A stretch of DNA of 24,000 nucleotides from Jeotgalibacillus sp. JSM ZJ347 (GCF_044383825.1 NZ_JBISEN010000005.1:53095-77094), one strand, 5' to 3'; positions 2,701 to 20,161 are shown, counted from the first letter of the stretch. Notes: generated from the letters alone by a model not told the origin. Numbers and translations are program-made.

Positions 2701-4100
2701 TATGAGACTCCAATCAGTACTGCAACAATCAATGCAATAACTGCGATACAGAACCAGCCAAGGATTAATTTCCAAATAAATTTAACCCATCGTTCATAGG
2801 GAATACCAGCAACAGCAAGATAGCCCATCAATGATGCAGAGGTTGGAATAATTGAATTAGAGATACCATCGCCATATTGATATGCGAGCACCGCAACTTG
2901 CCGGTTAATGCCCAGCAGATCAGATAAAGGCGTCATGATTGGCATTGTAGTGGCAGCCTGTCCGCTTCCTGAGGGAATAAACAGGTTTGTAATTGTCTGT
3001 ACCACCAGCATTCCCACTACATTCACCGTTTGAGGAAGCTGACTGATCAATGCTGCAAGTGAATTGACAAGTGTATCAATAATGACGCCATTTTCCATCA
3101 CAACAAGAATCGCACGAGCAAAACCTACAATCAACGCACCGAATGCCACAAGCTTCATACCATCGACAAAAGCATCAAATACCTGATTCACATTTAACCC
3201 GCCTACAAATCCAGAAAGCAAACCAATAATAATGAATGATGCAGCAAGCTCAGTTAAATACCATCCCCACTGAAAAACACCAAAGACGTTAAAAATTAAA
3301 CCACCAATGATAATTAAAAATACAAATAAATGCCTTGTTGAAAATGAAGGAAGTCCGGATTCCTTGATTTTCTCTTCCGCATCTTTTTTGGCTTTCAATT
3401 CAAGATCAGCAATGACACTGCGAGATGGGTCATTTTTTACTTTTCTTGCATATCTCATTACATAAAAAATTGCCACTGAAAGAATAAAAATGTATACCAC
3501 AAAGCGAAAACCAAATCCTGAAAAGATCGGAACCTCAGCAATGCCCTGTGCGATTCCAACAGTAAATGGATTCAGCATACCACCTATAAATCCGCTCGCT
3601 GCTCCGAGGCTGACCATTGCAGTACCAGTAATCGCGTCATATCCTATCGCACGGGCAATCGCAATCCCAATCGGAACAAAAATAATACTCTCCTCTGACA
3701 TACCCATGGTTGCTCCAAGCACTGAGAAAATAAACATGGTGATTGGAATTAATAAAAATTCTTTTTTGCCAAGCTTTACAACCGTTTTATGTATACCAGC
3801 TTCAATTGCATTCGTAGCGCGAATGATACCAAAAGCCCCACCTACTAAAAAGATATAAAAAATGATAGAAGAACCTGCTGCCATCCCTTCTGGAATTGCC
3901 ATAAAGACTTCAAAAAAGCCAATCGGATTTGATTCCACTTCCTTGTAGCTGTCACCAACCACGACTGTTCTCCCATCTACTTCTTCTCGATCGAACTGTC
4001 CTGCAGGAACAATGTAAGTTGCAATCGCCGCCAAAATCACAATCGAAAAAATAATGGCGTATGTATGTGGAATTGGCAATTTCTTTTTCTTTTCACTCAT
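2700..4100 (-). CDS. YfcC / DcuC-like family membrane transporter
   Basis: A 466-aa polytopic membrane protein. The N-terminus KKKKLPIPHTYAIIFSIVILAAIATYIVPAGQFDRE is typical of YfcC-family carriers. Its start overlaps the upstream stop as ATGA (4097-4100). Confidence 0.75.
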   Translation of the reverse strand: MSEKKKKLPIPHTYAIIFSIVILAAIATYIVPAGQFDREEVDGRTVVVGDSYKEVESNPIGFFEVFMAIPEGMAAGSSIIFYIFLVGGAFGIIRATNAIEAGIHKTVVKLGKKEFLLIPITMFIFSVLGATMGMSEESIIFVPIGIAIARAIGYDAITGTAMVSLGAASGFIGGMLNPFTVGIAQGIAEVPIFSGFGFRFVVYIFILSVAIFYVMRYARKVKNDPSRSVIADLELKAKKDAEEKIKESGLPSFSTRHLFVFLIIIGGLIFNVFGVFQWGWYLTELAASFIIIGLLSGFVGGLNVNQVFDAFVDGMKLVAFGALIVGFARAILVVMENGVIIDTLVNSLAALISQLPQTVNVVGMLVVQTITNLFIPSGSGQAATTMPIMTPLSDLLGINRQVAVLAYQYGDGISNSIIPTSASLMGYLAVAGIPYERWVKFIWKLILGWFCIAVIALIVAVLIGVS

Positions 4101-13965: not shown

Positions 13966-14574
13966 ATGTCAAAACCATCATCATCTGCCTACGTACTCGC
14001 GTATGAAACGATCCGTGACAGAATTCTAAACGGAGAATTAGAAGGCGGAACAAAATTAACAGAAGAACGCCTTGCTGAAGAACTCGGCGTCAGCCGTACA
14101 CCCATCAGAGAATCCATCAGGCGGCTTGAGCAGGAAGGCTTAATCAAAAAGAAACGCGTCGTCAAACCAACCGAAAGCGACCTACGCCACATGTTCCAGG
14201 TACGCATGATCCTAGAAGGTCACGCCGCCAGAACCGCAGCCGCCTACATGACAGACGACGAACTCACAGCACTCGCCGAATGTATCCACGTCGGCCGCAC
14301 CGGCACCATCGAAGAAATCATGAAAGCCAATAAACAATTCCACGACTTAATTGTTCAAGCAAGTCGCAACCCTGTCATGATTGATATCATTGATCAGATG
14401 CAGTCGATTATTTATCTGTTCAGAAAAACCGTTGTGTATCATAAGAGACCTGGGTTGATTGATGAGCATGAGGAGATTTATGAAGCGATTAAGGGTAGAG
14501 ATGCTGAGAAGGCTGAGGAATTGATGAAGAAGCATTTGCAGGCGGATTTGGATTTTTCGGTGCATGTATTGTAA
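13966..14574 (+). CDS. GntR-family (FadR/FCD subfamily) transcriptional regulator
   Basis: YETIRDRILNGELEGGTKLTEERLAEELGVSRTPIRESIRRLEQEGLI is the GntR wHTH, and the helical C-terminal part is FCD-like. I prefer ATG 13966. The track's TTG 13921 start adds a Pro/Ala-rich extension, and neither start has a good RBS. Confidence 0.8.
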   Translation: MSKPSSSAYVLAYETIRDRILNGELEGGTKLTEERLAEELGVSRTPIRESIRRLEQEGLIKKKRVVKPTESDLRHMFQVRMILEGHAARTAAAYMTDDELTALAECIHVGRTGTIEEIMKANKQFHDLIVQASRNPVMIDIIDQMQSIIYLFRKTVVYHKRPGLIDEHEEIYEAIKGRDAEKAEELMKKHLQADLDFSVHVL

Positions 14575-14615
14575 TAGGAAAAAGCGTTGATTGGGGATCA
14601 ACGCTTTTTCCTATT
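14573..14615. terminator. Bidirectional rho-independent terminator (19-bp perfect stem)
   Basis: AATAGGAAAAAGCGTTGAT-tgggg-ATCAACGCTTTTTCCTATT. A-run/T-run flanks are built into the stem. It serves the GntR gene (+) and probably the 598-aa gene (-). Confidence 0.85.
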
Positions 14616-14667
14616 ACATTCTAGATCTTATAAAGACCACAAGCACAGGAGCAAACTTTGTGTAATT

Positions 14668-16464
14668 TTATTTAATTAACGCTTGAAAAGCTTTATATAT
14701 AGGAAGATTACTCAAAGCCTCTTGCTCCGTTTTACTCAAGGAATTAAATATTTTATTTGACTTATGCTTATTTCCTAATATAACCTCACATGCAAAACAT
14801 ATTGAGCTTTCGCTTTTCTTCTCCGCTTTTTCAAGTATTTCAAAGATCTCTTGCTCATCTTTAGTACTTAACTGAATTCTTTTCTTTATTTTTATCAAAT
14901 TGATATTAATTTTTGCTATATCGCTTTCTGGATCCTTTTCTAAATACCCTTCATTGAGTTCTAAAGCCAAATCTAAATATCTTTCATCATTGATTGAATC
15001 ATAATAATTTATACAATCCAAAGATTTGTTTATAGTAACGTCAGATTCAATGTCATGAAACTCCTCAGTGAAAGATAATTTAAATATATCAAAATTAAAA
15101 TTTGCCATTTCTTCTAAATCATTTATTTTTTCTGGAGTAAATATACTTACTTTCCAATACTTATCGTTCCAATCATTTCCCTTCCACTCACTAAATTCTT
15201 GTTCAAATTTTATTTCACTTTTGGGAGTAAATCCTCCCACTATAGACAATGCTTCTTTGCTAAACATATTAATAAATTTATTTCCGCTATACATAACCTT
15301 TATTTTTATATAATTTGATAACTCTAGATTAAATATCATATCTTCTATTTTAAAGTCTTTCTCAAAATTAATACGATCTAACTTTTTATCATTAAAAATT
15401 TCTATAATATCAGTAAAAAGATGCTCTAAGTCCTCGTTCTTATCAAACTCATAATTTGCACTAATTCCTATTTGATTAAAAATGTTTTTCATTTCTTCAT
15501 AAAACTTTATATCAGTTGACAAATTATCAAATAAGTCTTTTTCTGTTATAGTTACACCCAGGTTAATCTTATTAAAAGGTAGTTTACCTTTTTCGATGTG
15601 ATATTTAATGAAATACAAGCATTTCAAGTATGAATCGATCGATTTTATTTTATCTATATGTAACTTACCTGTTTTCACCTCTTTATAGACCTCGAGAGTT
15701 AATGTGTTTTCTATAATTACTATGATCTTATCTTCTGATTCTCTTATATTGTAATTAATCACCAAGCTATTATTGTCTATTTCAACCACTTCAAAATTAC
15801 CCATTTTAATCTCTTTTAGTAGTACAGAATTAAGAGGAATCTCATAATTATTTAAAATTCCGTACAAATAAACGCTCTCTTCAAACAAATTATAGCCCTC
15901 TTTATCAGTATCATGGAAACGGATCTTATAATTGGTGAAATCTTTTTCGTGAGATGCCTCAATTAAATGTTTTGGCTGGCTTTCTACTACTCTCAAAGTG
16001 TTAATGCAGATTGATTCTAGTTCTCCTATATTCAAAACTTTAAATGATATTGAGATCGTTTCATTACCGCTATTCTTAAGTTGATATAGTATACCTTTTA
16101 AATCTAACGGTGCAAGTCTTCTATAATATGCTTGCTTTGCTCGTGTGGCTTTATTTATGGTAACTACAAAGTAAAGTACACCTTGCCCATCTTTGTAATA
16201 GACCTCTAAGTCTTTTTTGGCGACACTATGTTTTATTTTATTTTTTTTATTTACTTTTTTAAAAGTTGTTGTTCCTTTTACTTGAACAGGAACTCTCCCT
16301 TTAAAATTAGCTTTTTCTATAGCACCATTATATATCTCAACATCACCATCAAATGAGAGCCCTTTGTCGTTCCACTTTACATTACTAATTAATCTGTATG
16401 GTGGTTGCAGTATATGATAGTTAATCTCCATACAAGCTAAGTGCTCAATAATCACCTTATCCAT
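14668..16464 (-). CDS. 598-aa hypothetical protein; N-terminal DUF4365 / PD-(D/E)xK nuclease-like domain plus about 430 aa of unassigned, partly helical sequence (candidate effector of the RT locus)
   Basis: Residues about 7-65 read EHLACME...NDKGLSFDGDVEIY...GRVPVQVKGTT. That gives the E ... DxGxD ... QxK arrangement I associate with DUF4365 and Mrr-like restriction-endonuclease folds. The protein is Lys/Asn/Ile-rich and the gene is very AT-rich. GAGGTG RBS. The domain assignment is from memory of the family pattern, not from a search. Confidence 0.6.
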   Translation of the reverse strand: MDKVIIEHLACMEINYHILQPPYRLISNVKWNDKGLSFDGDVEIYNGAIEKANFKGRVPVQVKGTTTFKKVNKKNKIKHSVAKKDLEVYYKDGQGVLYFVVTINKATRAKQAYYRRLAPLDLKGILYQLKNSGNETISISFKVLNIGELESICINTLRVVESQPKHLIEASHEKDFTNYKIRFHDTDKEGYNLFEESVYLYGILNNYEIPLNSVLLKEIKMGNFEVVEIDNNSLVINYNIRESEDKIIVIIENTLTLEVYKEVKTGKLHIDKIKSIDSYLKCLYFIKYHIEKGKLPFNKINLGVTITEKDLFDNLSTDIKFYEEMKNIFNQIGISANYEFDKNEDLEHLFTDIIEIFNDKKLDRINFEKDFKIEDMIFNLELSNYIKIKVMYSGNKFINMFSKEALSIVGGFTPKSEIKFEQEFSEWKGNDWNDKYWKVSIFTPEKINDLEEMANFNFDIFKLSFTEEFHDIESDVTINKSLDCINYYDSINDERYLDLALELNEGYLEKDPESDIAKININLIKIKKRIQLSTKDEQEIFEILEKAEKKSESSICFACEVILGNKHKSNKIFNSLSKTEQEALSNLPIYKAFQALIK

Positions 16465-16508
16465 TATTCACCTCTAAAAATAATTATTTGATAAATAAAA
16501 AATGATAA

Positions 16509-16526
16509 AGAAGGAAAAATCCTTCT
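16509..16526 (-). terminator. Terminator-like hairpin between the short RT gene and the 598-aa gene
   Basis: AGAAGGA-aaaa-TCCTTCT. On the minus strand the stem is followed by TTATCATTTTTTATTTATC (U-rich). It lies 45 nt upstream of the 598-aa start codon. The stem is short and AT-rich, so its strength is uncertain. Confidence 0.4.
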
Positions 16527-16567
16527 GTTCTGAGAAAAGCTTGTATATATACTATGATTTAATTAAA

Positions 16568-16609
16568 ATTCAGAAGTCATACAGAATTAATGTATATTTA
16601 CTTCGAAAT
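16568..16609. repeat. Core hairpin of the dispersed repeat family, inside the RT locus spacer
   Basis: ATTCAGAAGTCATACAGAAT matches 23753-23772 ATTCAGAAGTCATATAGAAT at 19 of 20 positions. The partner arm ACTTCGAAAT (16600-16609) lies 22 nt away, the same arm spacing as in the 23.7-kb copy. Confidence 0.55.
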
Positions 16610-16691
16610 GTGAATTTGAAATGAGTCTTAAAAAGCATTATCAAAATAGGGAGAGACTTCTATTATTACTTTTATAGTACATAATTAAAAA

Positions 16692-17807
16692 TCAATAGAG
16701 TTTGTCAAATATTTTCATCACCAATTTATTTTTGGTTATTTTTAGAGGTTGAGGTATTCCAATATTATTGGCAATTAAATGAAGTTGAGAAAGAGTAGCT
16801 TTGTTATAGTTATAAATCTGCGGTGCTTGTGAAAGGTTTAAAGAAAATAATAATTTTTTATTTTTTTTACTAAACAATCTGGAGGTATTAATTTGTTTAG
16901 CAATTTCTTTATTTAGTAAATCATAGCTTTCATATCTATTAATACGTTTATAACTATTTTTAAATCCATAAGATACTATTTTATTAGTAGAATATTTTTT
17001 TGTTTCAACTTTCCACAAAAGATTTCTTAAAGAATAATATAAGATATAAACATCCGATTGATTTCTGCTGCTATGAAAATAACGTGAAAATAATTCTTGG
17101 ATCTTTTTTATATATTTTTTAATTTTATCATTACTAACAGAAACGTCGATTTCATTTGAACCGTTGCTACTTTTGAAGGAATAACCAAGATATGAAAAAT
17201 CAAAATTGTTTTCTTTATTAACAACTTGTAGTTGAGTTTTATCATTTAGTTCTAACTGATAATTTTTCAAAAGCTTTTCAACTAAAGATATTAAATGATC
17301 TTTTTGTTCTTTGTGGTTACCATAAATCACTACAATAATATCATCTACAAATCTTTCATAGAGTTGTATATTAGGAAGAATAATCGGCATAAGTTGATCA
17401 AATTCTTCAAGATAAATTTCTGACAACGATGAAGAAAAGCTTATTCCCTGTGGCAACCCTTTAACCTTATTAGAAAACACGATTTCTTTCACCTTATTTA
17501 ACGAGTTCTCTTTTAACATCATAGACTTATTTAATTTTTGATACAGTTTATGAGTATTTATACTCTCAAAAAAATTCTTCACATCAAATCTTAAAATTGT
17601 CAGAGATGTCCCTTTAGCTATTTTTTCATTTTTATTACTTAAAACAGTTAATAAAGCATCAATTATGTAATCTCTGTTTTTATCTATTAATCTATACTTA
17701 TTTTTAAGTTCTAAATGAATCTGATAGTCAACTAGTTTTTGACTCGAAGGCGCTACATAAATATTACGATTTTTTATTATTAGACGCTTATATTTAGAAA
17801 CTTTCAA
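16692..17807 (-). CDS. Reverse transcriptase, compact form (371 aa), non-retron, non-intron; candidate defence RT (UG8/DRT3b-like by size and context)
   Basis: RT motifs read in the translation: IIKNRNIYVAPSSQKLVDYQI (RT1/2-like), LRFDVKNFFESINTHKL (motif A Asp), GLPQGISFSSSLSEIYLEEFD (motif B), YERFVDDIIVV (motif C, FVDD in place of YxDD), LELNDKTQ, and SYLGYSF (motif 7). TTG start with AAGGAG 10 nt upstream. Confidence 0.85.
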   Translation of the reverse strand: MKVSKYKRLIIKNRNIYVAPSSQKLVDYQIHLELKNKYRLIDKNRDYIIDALLTVLSNKNEKIAKGTSLTILRFDVKNFFESINTHKLYQKLNKSMMLKENSLNKVKEIVFSNKVKGLPQGISFSSSLSEIYLEEFDQLMPIILPNIQLYERFVDDIIVVIYGNHKEQKDHLISLVEKLLKNYQLELNDKTQLQVVNKENNFDFSYLGYSFKSSNGSNEIDVSVSNDKIKKYIKKIQELFSRYFHSSRNQSDVYILYYSLRNLLWKVETKKYSTNKIVSYGFKNSYKRINRYESYDLLNKEIAKQINTSRLFSKKNKKLLFSLNLSQAPQIYNYNKATLSQLHLIANNIGIPQPLKITKNKLVMKIFDKLY

Positions 17808-18064
17808 AGGTAATTCACTCCTTTTAAAGGTATGGCTAGGTGGTAAGCAAGCTCACCACCTTATCACCCCTCAACAAGCGGGTAATATTGGAGCTTAATT
17901 ATATAATGAATCAAGATCCCTAATGTGTGTGCAAGGAGCAGGTACTGTTCAACAGTATAATGTAAAAGCTTGACCGATCTAACAGTATATAAGTTGAATA
18001 AACCATTTCCCGTGTTACTTTTGGCCGATACCTCTGTTATTATAATAAGAAATAAAACAAAAAA
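17808..18064. ncRNA. Candidate structured non-coding RNA / shared control region between the two divergent RT genes (orientation unknown)
   Basis: 257 bp without a credible ORF. Patches are visibly more GC-rich than the surrounding island (for example 17832-17895). Features are a hairpin AGGTGGT-N10-ACCACCT (17838-17861), a palindrome TACTGTT-c-AACAGTA (17943-17957), direct repeats AACAGTATA (17951-17959 and 17981-17989) and TG(A/G)CCGAT (17971-17978 and 18022-18029), and a (TG)4 tract (17924-17931). The RNA itself is inferred, not demonstrated. Confidence 0.35.
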
Positions 18065-18079
18065 ATGGAAGAGGTTATT

Positions 18080-19966
18080 ATGAAAAATAAGTTTTTTCTT
18101 AAAACTGATGTTTTACCTTCAGAATTGCCAATAAATTTCACAAACAAAAACCTATATTTAGCAAAAAAGGATTTTTCGAATAAGATATATACTATTCCTT
18201 ATAATTTTGAAATCCCTAAACCTAATTCAATTAATAATAGGGTATTGAGTTTGCCTCATCCCATTGCACAATTACAAATGATGAATTTTATTGATGCATT
18301 TAAGTTTAATATAACTAGTTTTTGTTCGCTGTCACCCTTCAGTATAAGATCTCCTTATAAAATAAATTCAATAAATACTCATTTAATAAAAAGAAAGCTA
18401 CAAAAAATTACATATGACAATGAACAGTTTTTTAATGCTGATGATAAATATATGATCAGGCTATCTTATAACGATGTTGTTGAAGAATATCATAATTTTT
18501 TTAGATACAAGAAATTTAGTATGCTTACTCAATTTTTAAATTCTCCCATATATCATCGATCGAAATCTAAGTATGATAATTTTATGAAATTAGATATCCA
18601 AAATTATTTTGACTCAATTTACACCCATTCTATAGAATGGGCATTGGCAGGTGATAAATACAGTATCAAAACAGGGTCTTTAAATACAAATACTGATGAC
18701 TTTCTGAAGGCTATAGATTTAATATGTCAACAGATAAATTACAAAGAAACCAACGGAATCATAATAGGTCCAGAATTCTCTAGGATTATATCTGAAATTC
18801 TTTTAACAAGAATTGATTTAAATATATTTAGGGATTTGTTTGATGTTGGATTAAAATATAATAAAGATTATATTATTTATCGTTATATTGATGATTACTT
18901 TATTTTTTTCAATAATGTTAGTGATATGAATGATGATAAAATTAAAGGAATAATTAGTAATAGACTTAAAGAATACAAATTATCATTAAACGATAACAAA
19001 TATGCTTTAGCAGATTCCAAAACTACTTTAGAAGATGACAGTATTGTCACATTAATCAAAGTAATAGATTACTTTTCCCAAAAATATTTCGAAACTTCTA
19101 ACTTTGATAATCGTATGAAATACATAAGTAATTTCTTAATTGATTTTGAAGTTATTATACAAAAATACCCTACTAAAAAACAAAAGTTAGTAAGATATAC
19201 CTTAAAGTCTCTAAATAAATTTATCAAAACTACCAAGGTGGAACGTGACCGGAAATTAATATTCGAACTAGCTTTACACTTATTTTCTCATTCTCCTGAA
19301 TATTATAGTTCTAGGTATTACTATACTTTTTTTCTTAAATGTATAGAATTCTCTAAAAAAGAAAAAATGGACAAGAGTCTGCTACGCAAGTTAGATGAAG
19401 ACGCTTTTCATTTTATGGTGAAAGCTTTAAAACAGAATTCAAATCACTTCCCTAAAATATACGATTTACTTATAGCAATGAAATTTTTAGATAAGAAAAT
19501 ATCCTCTTCTTTACTTTGTTCACTAATTGAAAAACATAAAAACGATTATTTCAGTCTTTGCACAATTGCATTATATATATTAAATGAAGACAAAATTGTT
19601 ACTAAGCAATATATTATTGTGCTTAAAAAAATTATTTCCACTCTGGATTTCTTTTTAAAAAATTATACTCAAAAAAGCCCAAAGAAATATCAAGACGCTT
19701 TTTACTTCTATCTAATTAATGACTTTTATCATTATCCTGGGTTCAACAAAAATTTTATTACAAAAAAAATTCATATGTCTTTAAAAAATGAATATAATGA
19801 GATGAAAAAAAATATGAATTTAGAATCATCTGTAACTCCTTCTGAGATTGATGTATTAATCAACAGATCTTATTTTAATTGGACCTGTAAGTTTGAATGG
19901 TTCTTTAAAAGAAGTATTCTTAAATCTGAAAACATTTCAAATGATACTATTAATAGCGATTATTAA
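18080..19966 (+). CDS. Reverse transcriptase, large UG/Abi-type (628 aa from ATG 18080; 633 aa from track start 18065) with a long helical C-terminal extension
   Basis: Motifs: LPSELPINF ... RVLSLPHPIAQLQ (N-terminal RT region), FMKLDIQNYFDSIYTHSIEWAL (motif A plus the SIYTHS signature I associate with Abi/UG defence RTs), NGIIIGPEFSRIISEILLTRID (motif B), and YRYIDDYFIFF (YxDD). About 330 aa of Lys/Tyr/Phe-rich helical sequence follows. GAGG lies 5 nt upstream of ATG 18080. Confidence 0.85.
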   Translation: MKNKFFLKTDVLPSELPINFTNKNLYLAKKDFSNKIYTIPYNFEIPKPNSINNRVLSLPHPIAQLQMMNFIDAFKFNITSFCSLSPFSIRSPYKINSINTHLIKRKLQKITYDNEQFFNADDKYMIRLSYNDVVEEYHNFFRYKKFSMLTQFLNSPIYHRSKSKYDNFMKLDIQNYFDSIYTHSIEWALAGDKYSIKTGSLNTNTDDFLKAIDLICQQINYKETNGIIIGPEFSRIISEILLTRIDLNIFRDLFDVGLKYNKDYIIYRYIDDYFIFFNNVSDMNDDKIKGIISNRLKEYKLSLNDNKYALADSKTTLEDDSIVTLIKVIDYFSQKYFETSNFDNRMKYISNFLIDFEVIIQKYPTKKQKLVRYTLKSLNKFIKTTKVERDRKLIFELALHLFSHSPEYYSSRYYYTFFLKCIEFSKKEKMDKSLLRKLDEDAFHFMVKALKQNSNHFPKIYDLLIAMKFLDKKISSSLLCSLIEKHKNDYFSLCTIALYILNEDKIVTKQYIIVLKKIISTLDFFLKNYTQKSPKKYQDAFYFYLINDFYHYPGFNKNFITKKIHMSLKNEYNEMKKNMNLESSVTPSEIDVLINRSYFNWTCKFEWFFKRSILKSENISNDTINSDY

Positions 19967-20007
19967 TTGAAATATTGACAAATCAAAATCATATTATAAA
20001 AAACAAA

Positions 20008-20086
20008 CCCTGCGTTAGAAGTTATTTATGTCGACAATCAAAATCAGTTAACCTTAAAAAGATTGTTCAGCGCAGGGTATTTTTTT
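20008..20086. terminator. Bidirectional terminator-like element with an unusually large (56-nt) loop
   Basis: AAAAAACAAA-CCCTGCG ... CGCAGGG-TATTTTTTT. It has an A-run upstream and a T-run downstream, so either strand reads stem plus U-tract. An inner helper stem is GACAATC / GATTGTT. It lies between the large RT gene (+) and DegV (-). Confidence 0.5.
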
Positions 20087-20161
20087 ATTAGATTTTTATA
20101 AAACTCAATTTTATGTAGTTAGTACTTTCCCTATGATAAGTAACTGTCAGTTTAATCTTTT

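What the first reader, a model, noticed from the sequence alone, without database searches (positions are those of the whole stretch)
16692..19966. Divergent pair of dissimilar RT genes sharing one control region: DRT type 3-like composition in a non-canonical layout
Seen: two RT genes of very different architecture are transcribed away from each other across 257-272 bp. One is 371 aa and compact, with a GLPQG...FVDD...LGY motif set. The other is 628 aa, with SIYTHS...IGPEFSR...YIDD motifs and a helical tail of about 330 aa. Established: the only described defence system I know of that needs two different RTs is DRT type 3. It pairs a long UG3-class RT with a short UG8-class RT and an ncRNA, and as I remember it these are drawn as a co-directional operon. 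Inference: this locus may be a diverged DRT3 relative, with the ncRNA placed between divergent genes. Alternatively it is two independent single-RT systems that happen to be adjacent. I cannot assign UG clades without a phylogeny.
Basis: partly seen in the sequence, partly recalled or inferred. Interest (0 to 1): 0.8.

Follow-up and report, generated by a model that had tools for sequence, protein, structure and literature searches.

The report
Divergent-layout DRT3 phage-defence locus
The two back-to-back reverse-transcriptase genes form a DRT3 anti-phage system in the gene layout already described for Gram-positive bacteria, and its template RNA most likely lies between the genes on the short gene's strand, so this is a sound but fairly ordinary find.

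Summary
A 371-aa RT gene (16692-17807, minus) and a 628/633-aa RT gene (18080 or 18065 to 19966, plus) diverge across 257-272 bp.

They are Drt3a (UG3, class 2) and Drt3b (UG8, class 1).

The divergent layout is not new. Mestre et al. 2022 describe it for "Terrabacteria" DRT3. Among 87 Drt3b loci, all 18 divergent ones plus the window form one clade. From the Drt3a side, 35 of 35 assessable metagenome loci carry a divergent Drt3b.

The spacer holds an invariant ACACACA on the drt3a strand in the window and 48 relatives. This matches the ACACAC template of the E. coli DRT3 ncRNA. I predict a 210-nt ncRNA (17826-18035, minus) that forms the 5' leader of drt3a. It folds better on that strand in 8 of 8 close relatives. 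The hairpin next to the template has 15 G·U and 0 A·C pairs.

Drt3b keeps the residues that specify protein-primed poly(dC-dA) synthesis (E20, R59, R240, C-terminal Y633).

The neighbouring 598-aa DUF4365 gene is unrelated to the system.

Verdict: a new member of a known kind, of modest interest.

The parts
16692..17807 (-). drt3a: class-2 (UG3) reverse transcriptase, 371 aa, TTG start, FVDD active site
   Evidence: The ORF is listed. Pfam RVT_1 scores 1.9e-15. PADLOC Drt3a scores 3.1e-63, against 9e-29 for the next family, UG17. NCBIfam Drt3a scores 155 bits, below the 200 cut-off. PDB Drt3a 9z6y_A matches at 2.6e-10. All 13 clade members hit Drt3a best.
17818..17824 (-). Ribosome-binding site (AAAGGAG) of drt3a, directly after the 3' strand of helix P1
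   Evidence: Read directly from the sequence. The distance from the end of P1 to the start codon is 17-49 nt in all 8 close relatives.
17826..18035 (-). Predicted DRT3 ncRNA, about 210 nt, forming the 5' leader of drt3a. A long-range helix P1 (18024-18035 pairing with 17826-17836) closes a multi-branch fold.
   Evidence: The minus strand folds at -64.1 kcal/mol (z = -3.0). The plus strand folds at -51.0 (z = -0.5). A P1 helix of 7-19 bp appears in all 8 independent MFE folds. The drt3a strand has the lower MFE in 8 of 8 loci. Expression has not been tested.
17924..17930 (-). ACACACA: predicted RNA template for Drt3a-made poly(dT-dG)
   Evidence: This is the only ACACAC in the island. It is invariant in the alignment of 8 loci. 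It is present on the drt3a strand in 14 of 14 genome loci of the two nearest subclades and in 35 of 35 metagenome loci, and never on the other strand of the spacer. It is unpaired in every MFE fold. The template role is established for E. coli DRT3 (PMC13174585).
17890..17919 (-). SL-T: hairpin immediately 3' of the template, starting at an invariant GG
   Evidence: RNAalifold predicts 11 pairs, 3 of them with compensatory changes, across 4 loci. An anchored search finds 9-11 paired positions in 7 of 8 loci (shuffle fractions 0.006-0.07), with AU/UA/GC covariation at depths 2-5. The stem has 15 G·U and 0 A·C pairs. It is also the MFE of the isolated segment.
17838..17887 (-). Two further hairpins (17862-17887 and 17838-17861) between SL-T and the 3' strand of P1; variable among relatives
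   Evidence: Seen in the window MFE. Hairpins are also predicted at this position in L081 and L085/L087, but absent in L082 and L084.
18036..18047 (.). Conserved, nearly palindromic -10-like element. It reads TATAAT on the minus strand (18044-18039) and TGnTATTAT/TATAAT on the plus strand. It is a candidate shared core for the divergent promoters.
   Evidence: Columns T39 A40 T41 T44 T47 A48 are invariant in alignment A3. The generic promoter scan was uninformative in this AT-rich DNA. This assignment is inference only.
18080..19966 (+). drt3b: class-1 (UG8) reverse transcriptase with an alpha-repeat domain and a C-terminal tail. It is 628 aa from the ATG at 18080; the ORF is open from 18065 (633 aa). 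YIDD active site.
   Evidence: PADLOC Drt3b scores 6.6e-117. NCBIfam Drt3b scores 278 bits, below the 350 cut-off. PDB 26cz (SUMO-tagged 667-aa Drt3b) matches at 4.3e-43 and 9z6y_H Drt3b at 1.2e-34. In 633-aa numbering, E20, R59, D177, F182, R240, Y274-I-D-D277 and Y633 align with E22, R71, D182, F187, R241, YVDD and Y666 of E. coli Drt3b.
16509..16526 (-). Terminator-like hairpin plus T-run after drt3a, separating it from the DUF4365 gene
   Evidence: Found by the terminator scan. The fold is -8.9 kcal/mol with z = -2.4.
20007..20088 (+). Long hairpin (CCCTGCG...CGCAGGG) flanked by an A-run and a T-run after drt3b; likely a bidirectional terminator shared with degV
   Evidence: Sequence. The fold is -22.1 kcal/mol with z = -3.6.

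Best explanation
The locus is a complete DRT3 (UG3 + UG8) anti-phage system of the divergent architecture found in Bacillota.

Shown here:
- The short gene is Drt3a and the long gene is Drt3b.
- The pair is conserved as a divergent unit across one clade.
- The spacer carries an invariant ACACACA on the drt3a strand, within a region that folds significantly and preferentially on that strand.

Inferred by analogy with the E. coli system (PMC13174585):
- The spacer is transcribed toward drt3a as a roughly 210-nt ncRNA leader (17826-18035, minus strand).
- Drt3a binds this RNA and copies the ACACAC template repeatedly into poly(dT-dG).
- Drt3b, probably as an oligomer, primes from its C-terminal tyrosine (Y633). 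Using the conserved Glu (E20) and Arg (R240) as nucleotide gates, it makes poly(dC-dA) without any nucleic-acid template.
- The two strands anneal into GT/AC duplex DNA. When a phage disables the host's DNA-end degradation, this DNA accumulates and causes growth arrest (abortive infection).

The divergent layout only changes where the ncRNA gene sits. Here it is upstream of drt3a, as in DRT2, DRT9 and DRT10, rather than downstream of drt3b.
For: Family assignment:
- PADLOC Drt3a 3.1e-63 and Drt3b 6.6e-117, each far ahead of other RT families.
- Solved Drt3b and Drt3a structures are the best PDB matches.

Catalytic and specificity residues:
- E22, R71, R241, YVDD and Y666 of E. coli Drt3b align with E20, R59, R240, YIDD and Y633.
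- These positions are invariant or nearly invariant in 15 homologues.

Linkage:
- 82 of 87 Drt3b loci have an adjacent Drt3a.
- The 18 divergent loci plus the window form a single clade on a neighbour-joining tree, with no co-directional locus inside it.
- 35 of 35 assessable Drt3a-anchored metagenome loci have a divergent Drt3b.

Template:
- ACACAC(A) lies on the drt3a strand of the spacer in the window, in 13 genome loci and in 35 metagenome loci. It is never on the other strand of the spacer.
- As a positive control, 57 of 64 co-directional loci have ACACAC within 400 nt downstream of drt3b (56 on the operon strand).

Strand and structure:
- Window MFE is -64.1 (z = -3.0) on the minus strand and -51.0 (z = -0.5) on the plus strand.
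- The drt3a strand is more stable in 8 of 8 relatives.
- SL-T shows compensatory changes and 15 G·U against 0 A·C pairs.
- A P1 closing helix is predicted in 8 of 8 loci and ends 17-49 nt before the drt3a start codon.
- Streptococcus-like relatives have a clear TTGATT-17-TGnTACCAT promoter on the drt3a strand just upstream of a conserved GUAGGC/GCCUAC P1.

Mechanism: E. coli DRT3 was dissected in PMC13174585.
Against: - There are no expression, product or phenotype data for this locus or for any divergent-type DRT3.
- NCBIfam scores for both proteins are below the curated equivalog cut-offs.
- Rfam has no matching family.
- MAFFT-based consensus folding of 8 or 15 loci gave no structure, so most structural support comes from my own anchored analyses.
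- P1 is not individually significant in the window in a strict contiguous-pair test.
- The 5' domain of the fold is not conserved between the window and its closest relative: 28 of 70 MFE pairs are broken.
- In the L001-L006 subclade both strands fold equally well.
- No convincing -35 element precedes the ncRNA in the window itself.
- Mestre et al. describe the ncRNA only as 'upstream of UG8', which leaves the strand open.
Confidence: 0.8

Rival explanations
1. It is the same DRT3 system, but the ncRNA is transcribed in the drt3b direction as the 5' UTR of drt3b. This is the literal reading of 'ncRNA upstream of UG8'. The RNA would then carry UGUGUGU.
For: Mestre 2022 found conservation in the 300 bp upstream of UG8 in Terrabacteria. 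A conserved extended -10-like TGnTATTAT faces drt3b. In the L001-L006 subclade the drt3b-strand RNA folds as well as the other strand. On this strand the conserved hairpin would lie 5' of the repeat, as it does in canonical loci.
Against: - A UGUGUG template would make Drt3a produce poly(dC-dA), the same strand that Drt3b is predicted to make from its conserved E20 and R240. No duplex could then form.
- SL-T has 15 G·U and 0 A·C pairs, so it is mismatched on the drt3b strand.
- The MFE is lower on the drt3a strand in 8 of 8 loci of the window's subclade.
- In canonical loci the motif is always ACACAC on the drt3a strand.
- The conserved region (P1) ends at the drt3a ribosome-binding site.
Confidence: 0.1
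2. Two unrelated single-gene RT defence systems (for example a UG17/DRT10-like RT and an AbiK/DRT4-like RT) happen to lie next to each other in a defence island.
For: Defence genes cluster in islands. The long RT also hits Drt6, Drt4 and AbiK models, and the short RT also hits UG17 and Drt2 models, at weaker scores. Both NCBIfam scores are below cut-off.
Against: The best-scoring families are Drt3a and Drt3b, by 34 and 73 orders of magnitude over the next family. The same divergent pair recurs in 18 genome and 35 metagenome loci, in different genomic contexts, with a conserved spacer motif.
Confidence: 0.02
3. It is a three-gene system in which the adjacent 598-aa DUF4365 (nuclease-like) protein is the effector of this DRT3 variant.
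For: The DUF4365 gene lies in the same low-G+C island, on the same strand as drt3a and 227 bp downstream of it. Pfam DUF4365 scores 1.3e-5. Some DRT3 loci carry accessory SLATT genes (Mestre 2022).
Against: No DUF4365 homologue lies next to any of the other 87 Drt3b loci or in the close relatives. A terminator-like hairpin separates it from drt3a. Its homologues occur alone in integrase-bearing or other islands without RTs.
Confidence: 0.05
4. It is a decaying or inactive remnant of a DRT3 system.
For: Scores are below the NCBIfam cut-offs. Drt3a is about 40 aa shorter at the N-terminus than the PADLOC profile.
Against: Both ORFs are full length for their clade, which spans 371-399 aa for Drt3a and 628-652 aa for Drt3b. 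All catalytic, gating and priming residues are intact. The spacer motif is intact.
Confidence: 0.03

Closest known systems
Terrabacteria-type DRT3 (UG3 + UG8 on opposite strands) noted by Mestre et al. 2022, NAR 50:6084 (PMC9226505)
   Same: It has the same two RT families, the same divergent orientation, conserved non-coding sequence between the genes, and a Bacillota host. The window belongs to this group: it falls in one clade with 18 other divergent loci.
   Different: The paper gives only one sentence and a supplementary figure. It places the ncRNA 'upstream of UG8' and reports the CACACA motif only for the canonical groups 1-17. Here the motif is found in the divergent group as well. It is assigned to the drt3a strand, which makes the ncRNA the drt3a leader. 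No member of this group has been tested experimentally.
Canonical DRT3 of E. coli (EcoDRT3; Gao 2020; Wang et al. 2026, PMC13174585; Deng et al. 2026; PDB 26cz, 9z6y, 9z6z)
   Same: It has Drt3a plus Drt3b plus an ncRNA with an ACACAC template on the drt3a strand. The Drt3b E22, R71, R241 and Y666 equivalents and both YxDD boxes are conserved.
   Different: The gene order there is drt3a-drt3b-ncRNA in one operon; here it is ncRNA-drt3a on one strand and drt3b on the other. Protein identity is roughly 30-35% or less. The ncRNA shares no sequence outside the template. In canonical loci the conserved hairpin abuts the 5' side of the template, whereas here it abuts the 3' side.
DRT10 (UG17), DRT9 (UG28) and DRT2 (UG2): class-2 RTs with an ncRNA encoded just upstream of the RT
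   Same: Drt3a's next-best family is UG17. As in DRT2, and as I recall for DRT9/DRT10, the predicted ncRNA here lies directly 5' of the class-2 RT gene on the same strand. A short template sits in an unpaired region and is copied repeatedly (PMC13174585; PMC12632851 abstract).
   Different: Those systems have one RT (plus a SLATT effector in DRT10) and no class-1 partner making the complementary strand. Their templates and products differ: poly-dA for DRT9, other tandem repeats for DRT10, and a concatenated gene for DRT2.
AbiK, DRT4 (UG15) and DRT6 (UG12): class-1 protein-primed, untemplated RTs
   Same: Drt3b shares their RT plus alpha-repeat architecture and C-terminal tyrosine priming.
   Different: They act as single genes and make random or other products. 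The Drt3b-specific models score far higher here.

Membership tests
DRT type 3 (UG3 + UG8) | A class-2 RT of the UG3/Drt3a family | tested here: met
   PADLOC Drt3a scores 3.1e-63, against 9e-29 for the next family, UG17. PDB Drt3a is the best match. Caveat: the NCBIfam equivalog scores 155 bits, below its 200 cut-off.
DRT type 3 (UG3 + UG8) | A class-1 RT of the UG8/Drt3b family with an alpha-repeat domain and C-terminal tail | tested here: met
   PADLOC Drt3b scores 6.6e-117 over profile positions 15-585 of 604. PDB Drt3b matches at 4.3e-43 over residues 9-519. Caveat: NCBIfam scores 278 bits, below its 350 cut-off.
DRT type 3 (UG3 + UG8) | The two RT genes are adjacent and conserved as a pair | tested here: met
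   82 of 87 Drt3b loci have an adjacent Drt3a. 35 of 35 assessable Drt3a loci have an adjacent Drt3b.
DRT type 3 (UG3 + UG8) | A cis-encoded structured ncRNA carrying an exposed ACACAC template | tested here: inconclusive
   The motif is present, invariant and on the drt3a strand. The region folds significantly (z = -3.0) with the motif unpaired. The existence and ends of the transcript were not testable, and Rfam has no matching family.
DRT type 3 (UG3 + UG8) | Intact polymerase active sites in both RTs | tested here: met
   FVDD in Drt3a (V154, D155 and D156 are invariant). YIDD in Drt3b (D276 and D277 are invariant).
DRT type 3 (UG3 + UG8) | Drt3b residues that gate dATP and dCTP (E22, R241, with R71) and the priming tyrosine (Y666) | tested here: met
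   E20, R240, R59 and Y633 align to these residues. The 108-residue tag offset in 26cz reproduces the published numbering. R59 and R240 are invariant; E20 and Y633 are at least 90% conserved.
DRT type 3 (UG3 + UG8) | Canonical operon order drt3a-drt3b-ncRNA on one strand | tested here: not met
   The genes are divergent and the motif lies between them. This is a feature of the canonical subgroup only. Mestre 2022 includes the divergent architecture within DRT3.
DRT type 3 (UG3 + UG8) | Synthesis of poly(dT-dG) and poly(dC-dA) and protection against phage | not testable with these tools
   This needs cloning, plaque assays and sequencing of the DNA products.
Terrabacteria-type (divergent) DRT3 subgroup of Mestre 2022 | UG3 and UG8 on opposite strands with conserved non-coding sequence between them, in Terrabacteria | tested here: met
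   The host is Jeotgalibacillus. The genes are divergent with a 257-272 bp conserved spacer. The locus falls in a single clade with the other divergent loci.

The most novel reading that the evidence does not exclude
In the divergent Bacillota DRT3 clade, the ncRNA is the 5' leader of drt3a rather than an RNA 'upstream of UG8'. The unit would then be ncRNA followed by a class-2 RT, exactly as in DRT2, DRT9 and DRT10, with the class-1 Drt3b transcribed the other way from a shared, nearly palindromic -10 region. This would be natural genetic evidence that the ncRNA belongs to Drt3a. It would suggest that DRT3 arose when an ncRNA-plus-class-2-RT module recruited a class-1 RT. It would also show that the GT/AC duplex chemistry (ACACACA template plus the Glu/Arg/Tyr set in Drt3b) is conserved across both layouts and across phyla.
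Probability: 0.6. Interest if true: 0.4.

Novelty: new member of a known kind. Interest (0 to 1): 0.3.

Why it matters
DRT3 is the system in which a protein active site, not a nucleic acid, dictates a DNA sequence. All experiments so far use one E. coli operon.

This locus shows that the Gram-positive, divergently arranged version keeps every known determinant: the ACACACA template, the Glu/Arg gates and the priming Tyr. It also shows that the ncRNA travels with drt3a, which independently supports the division of labour found biochemically.

The locus is compact, about 3.3 kb. It offers a Bacillota system for testing whether the mechanism and its RecBCD/Gam trigger logic hold in hosts that use AddAB.

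Both proteins score below the NCBIfam cut-offs and are annotated only as generic RNA-directed DNA polymerases. This clade is therefore under-counted in genome annotation.

Tried and rejected
- **Rfam.** Neither the gathering threshold nor a permissive E-value search gave a relevant family.
- **MAFFT plus RNAalifold.** Runs on 8 ncRNA regions, on 8 template segments and on 15 Streptococcus-like loci gave no consensus pairs, because stems of different length were misaligned. A 4-sequence alignment for a covariance model was also misaligned, so I built no model. Only the 4-locus alignment recovered SL-T.
- **Strict P1 test.** A contiguous-pair test anchored on the invariant AGG was significant in only 2-3 of 8 loci, and not in the window. 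P1 therefore rests on its recurrence in independent MFE folds.
- **Projecting whole MFE folds between sister loci.** The 5' domain is not conserved, so I claim only P1, the unpaired template and SL-T.
- **Generic promoter scan.** It found no more sites than shuffled sequence does in this AT-rich DNA.
- **Metagenome scan with the single Drt3a protein.** It found nothing. The repeat with a clade alignment worked.
- **Direct repeats flanking the island.** None were convincing.
- **Mestre 2022 supplementary figures.** They are not held as text in the library.
- **DUF4365 gene as a third component.** Considered and rejected.


Full report
**What is in the sequence.** One search lists both ORFs at the stated coordinates. 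The first runs 16692-17807 on the minus strand (371 aa, TTG start preceded by AAAGGAG). The second runs 18065-19966 on the plus strand (633 aa). The likely start of the long gene is the ATG at 18080. It has a GGAAGAGG ribosome-binding site, matches the N-termini of homologues, and is the start of the public protein P0001 (628 aa) from Jeotgalibacillus sp. JSM ZJ347. The spacer is therefore 257 or 272 bp, as reported. Both genes, together with a third gene at 14668-16464, lie in an island of about 26% G+C (about 14600-20100) in a 40-47% G+C chromosome. The island sits between a GntR/FCD regulator gene and a DegV gene.

**What the two proteins are.** Against PADLOC, the short protein hits Drt3a at 3.1e-63, with UG17 next at 9e-29. 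The long protein hits Drt3b at 6.6e-117, with Drt6 next at 8e-44. NCBIfam ranks Drt3a and Drt3b first for the two proteins, but both score below the curated cut-offs: 155 against 200 bits and 278 against 350 bits. This explains why the public record calls the long protein only 'RNA-directed DNA polymerase'. The best solved-structure matches are Drt3b (26cz at 4.3e-43; 9z6y_H at 1.2e-34) and Drt3a (9z6y_A at 2.6e-10). So the short RT is UG3/Drt3a (class 2) and the long RT is UG8/Drt3b (class 1).

**Is the layout new?** It is not. Mestre et al. 2022 (PMC9226505, read) distinguish two architectures. One is the canonical UG3-UG8-ncRNA order. [quoted passage not shown]

I tested this on fresh data:
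- A scan of one genome per species returned 80 Drt3b loci, and I added 7 close relatives.
- Of these 87 loci, 64 have drt3a co-directional and just upstream of drt3b, 18 have it divergent, and 5 gave no Drt3a hit.
- On a neighbour-joining tree of Drt3b, the 18 divergent loci plus the window form a single clade with no co-directional locus inside it. The named genomes among them are Bacillota.
- From the other side, a metagenome scan seeded with a Drt3a alignment gave 40 strong Drt3a loci. Thirty-five have a divergent Drt3b immediately upstream. The other five end within 340 nt of the contig edge, so they cannot be assessed.

The pair is therefore an obligate unit, and 'two independent systems' is excluded.

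**The ncRNA.** In E. coli DRT3, the ncRNA lies downstream of drt3b. It carries a 5'-ACACAC-3' loop that Drt3a copies into poly(dT-dG) (PMC13174585). As a positive control, 57 of the 64 co-directional loci have ACACAC within 400 nt downstream of drt3b (56 on the operon strand).

In the window, the only ACACAC in the whole island is at 17925-17930 on the minus strand, in the spacer. An alignment of the spacer with 7 relatives, whose Drt3b proteins are 41-65% identical to the window's, shows an invariant block ACACACA-U-GG on the drt3a strand. The motif is also on the drt3a strand in six more distant genome loci. It is there in all 35 metagenome loci too, and none of them has it on the opposite strand of the spacer.

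**Strand and structure.**
- The window's minus-strand RNA (17808-18035) folds at -64.1 kcal/mol (z = -3.0). The plus strand folds at -51.0 (z = -0.5).
- Across the 8 loci of the window's subclade, the drt3a strand has the lower MFE in 8 of 8 and the stronger z-score in 7 of 8.
- The independent folds share one plan. A long-range helix P1 of 7-19 bp joins the 5' end to a site 17-49 nt before the drt3a start codon. After a variable 5' domain, the template is unpaired. A hairpin (SL-T) begins at the invariant GG just 3' of the template.
- RNAalifold on four loci recovers SL-T with three compensatory pairs.
- An anchored search finds 9-11 paired positions in 7 of 8 loci, with AU/UA/GC covariation.
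- In a strand-symmetric count, SL-T has 15 G·U and 0 A·C pairs. The helix is therefore complete only on the drt3a strand.
- In Streptococcus-like relatives, a clear TTGATT-17-TGnTACCAT promoter on the drt3a strand precedes a conserved GUAGGC/GCCUAC P1.

I therefore place the ncRNA at 17826-18035 on the minus strand, as the leader of drt3a. The weaknesses of this assignment are:
- There are no expression data.
- MAFFT-based consensus folding failed on the larger sets.
- P1 is not individually significant in the window.
- The 5' domain is not conserved.
- In the L001-L006 subclade both strands fold equally well.

**Drt3b determinants.** Wang et al. show that E22 and R241, helped by R71, gate dATP and dCTP, and that Y666 primes synthesis. 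The alignment to chain 26cz carries a 108-residue tag offset that reproduces those numbers. It maps them to E20, R240, R59 and Y633 of the window protein. Y633 is the last residue. Among 15 homologues, R59 and R240 are invariant, and E20 and the terminal Tyr are at least 90% conserved. The YIDD box in Drt3b and the FVDD box in Drt3a are intact. A Drt3b predicted to make poly(dC-dA) needs a Drt3a template that reads ACACAC. This again favours the minus strand. A plus-strand RNA would read UGUGUG, and both enzymes would then make the same strand.

**How it most likely works.**
- Shown: the family identity, the conserved pairing, and the conserved template motif and residues.
- Inferred by analogy: the spacer is transcribed toward drt3a. 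Drt3a with the ncRNA makes poly(dT-dG). Drt3b, primed on Y633, makes poly(dC-dA). The strands anneal. The GT/AC duplex accumulates when a phage blocks host end-processing nucleases, and the result is abortive infection.

A conserved, nearly palindromic -10-like element (18036-18047) lies between the ncRNA 5' end and the drt3b start. It could serve both transcription units. This is speculative, and the generic promoter scan was uninformative.

**The neighbouring gene.** The 598-aa protein encoded at 14668-16464 has a weak DUF4365 match and no PADLOC or PDB match. It has about 77 homologues of similar length, mostly from Bacillaceae. None lies beside any other DRT3 locus. Homologues sit alone in integrase-bearing or other islands. 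A terminator-like hairpin separates the gene from drt3a. It is a separate cargo gene of the island.

**Verdict.** This is a new member of a known kind. The modest additions here are the assignment of the ncRNA to the drt3a strand, the finding that the ACACACA template and the Drt3b gating and priming residues are conserved in the divergent clade, and the note that this clade falls below the NCBIfam naming cut-offs.

Noticed in passing
window 14668-16464 (-): A 598-aa protein with a weak N-terminal DUF4365 (nuclease-like) match and no PADLOC or PDB hit. About 77 homologues of 580-630 aa exist, mostly from Bacillaceae. They occur as lone genes in integrase-bearing islands or next to SLFN-like helicase genes. 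It is a candidate uncharacterised defence or mobile-element gene and is not linked to DRT3.
   Followed up: partly
L009 (Alicyclobacillus), L010 (Proteocatella), L033 (Heyndrickxia), L049 (Halobacillus): around positions 3750-4000 of each locus: A deeper branch of the divergent DRT3 clade has a much shorter spacer and no ACACAC between the genes. L009 has the motif on the drt3a strand just past the drt3b stop. Where these systems keep their template, and whether it has the same sequence, is unknown.
   Followed up: partly
window 16692-16700 (C-terminus of Drt3a) and alignment A8: Drt3a proteins of this clade end in (I/L)F..LY. A tyrosine at or near the C-terminus is present in 11 of 13. This recalls the priming tyrosine of Drt3b and might indicate protein priming by Drt3a.
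   Followed up: no
L081 4001-7983 and L083 4001-8075: In two different Bacillaceae genomes, the same divergent DRT3 pair sits immediately beside groEL-groES. This suggests a recurrent insertion site that differs from the GntR/DegV site in the window.
   Followed up: no
window 16692-17807 and 18065-19966: Both proteins score below the NCBIfam equivalog cut-offs for Drt3a and Drt3b (155 against 200 bits; 278 against 350 bits), and the public record names Drt3b only 'RNA-directed DNA polymerase'. Divergent-type DRT3 is probably under-annotated in RefSeq.
   Followed up: partly
window 14570-14618: A perfect 22-nt inverted repeat with a 5-nt loop lies between the convergent GntR-family gene and the DUF4365 gene, at the left edge of the low-G+C island. 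It is probably a bidirectional terminator.
   Followed up: no
window 17820-17830 (-): The 3' strand of P1 (CCUUU) could instead pair with the drt3a ribosome-binding site (AAAGG) just downstream. ncRNA folding might then influence drt3a translation. This is pure speculation.
   Followed up: no
co-directional loci L011-L080, 30 nt before ACACAC: In canonical DRT3 loci a short G+C-rich hairpin ends directly at the 5' side of the template (for example GGCUGUUGGCAGCC-C-ACACAC). In the window's clade, the conserved hairpin is on the 3' side instead. The template-boundary arrangement may differ between the two architectures.
   Followed up: partly
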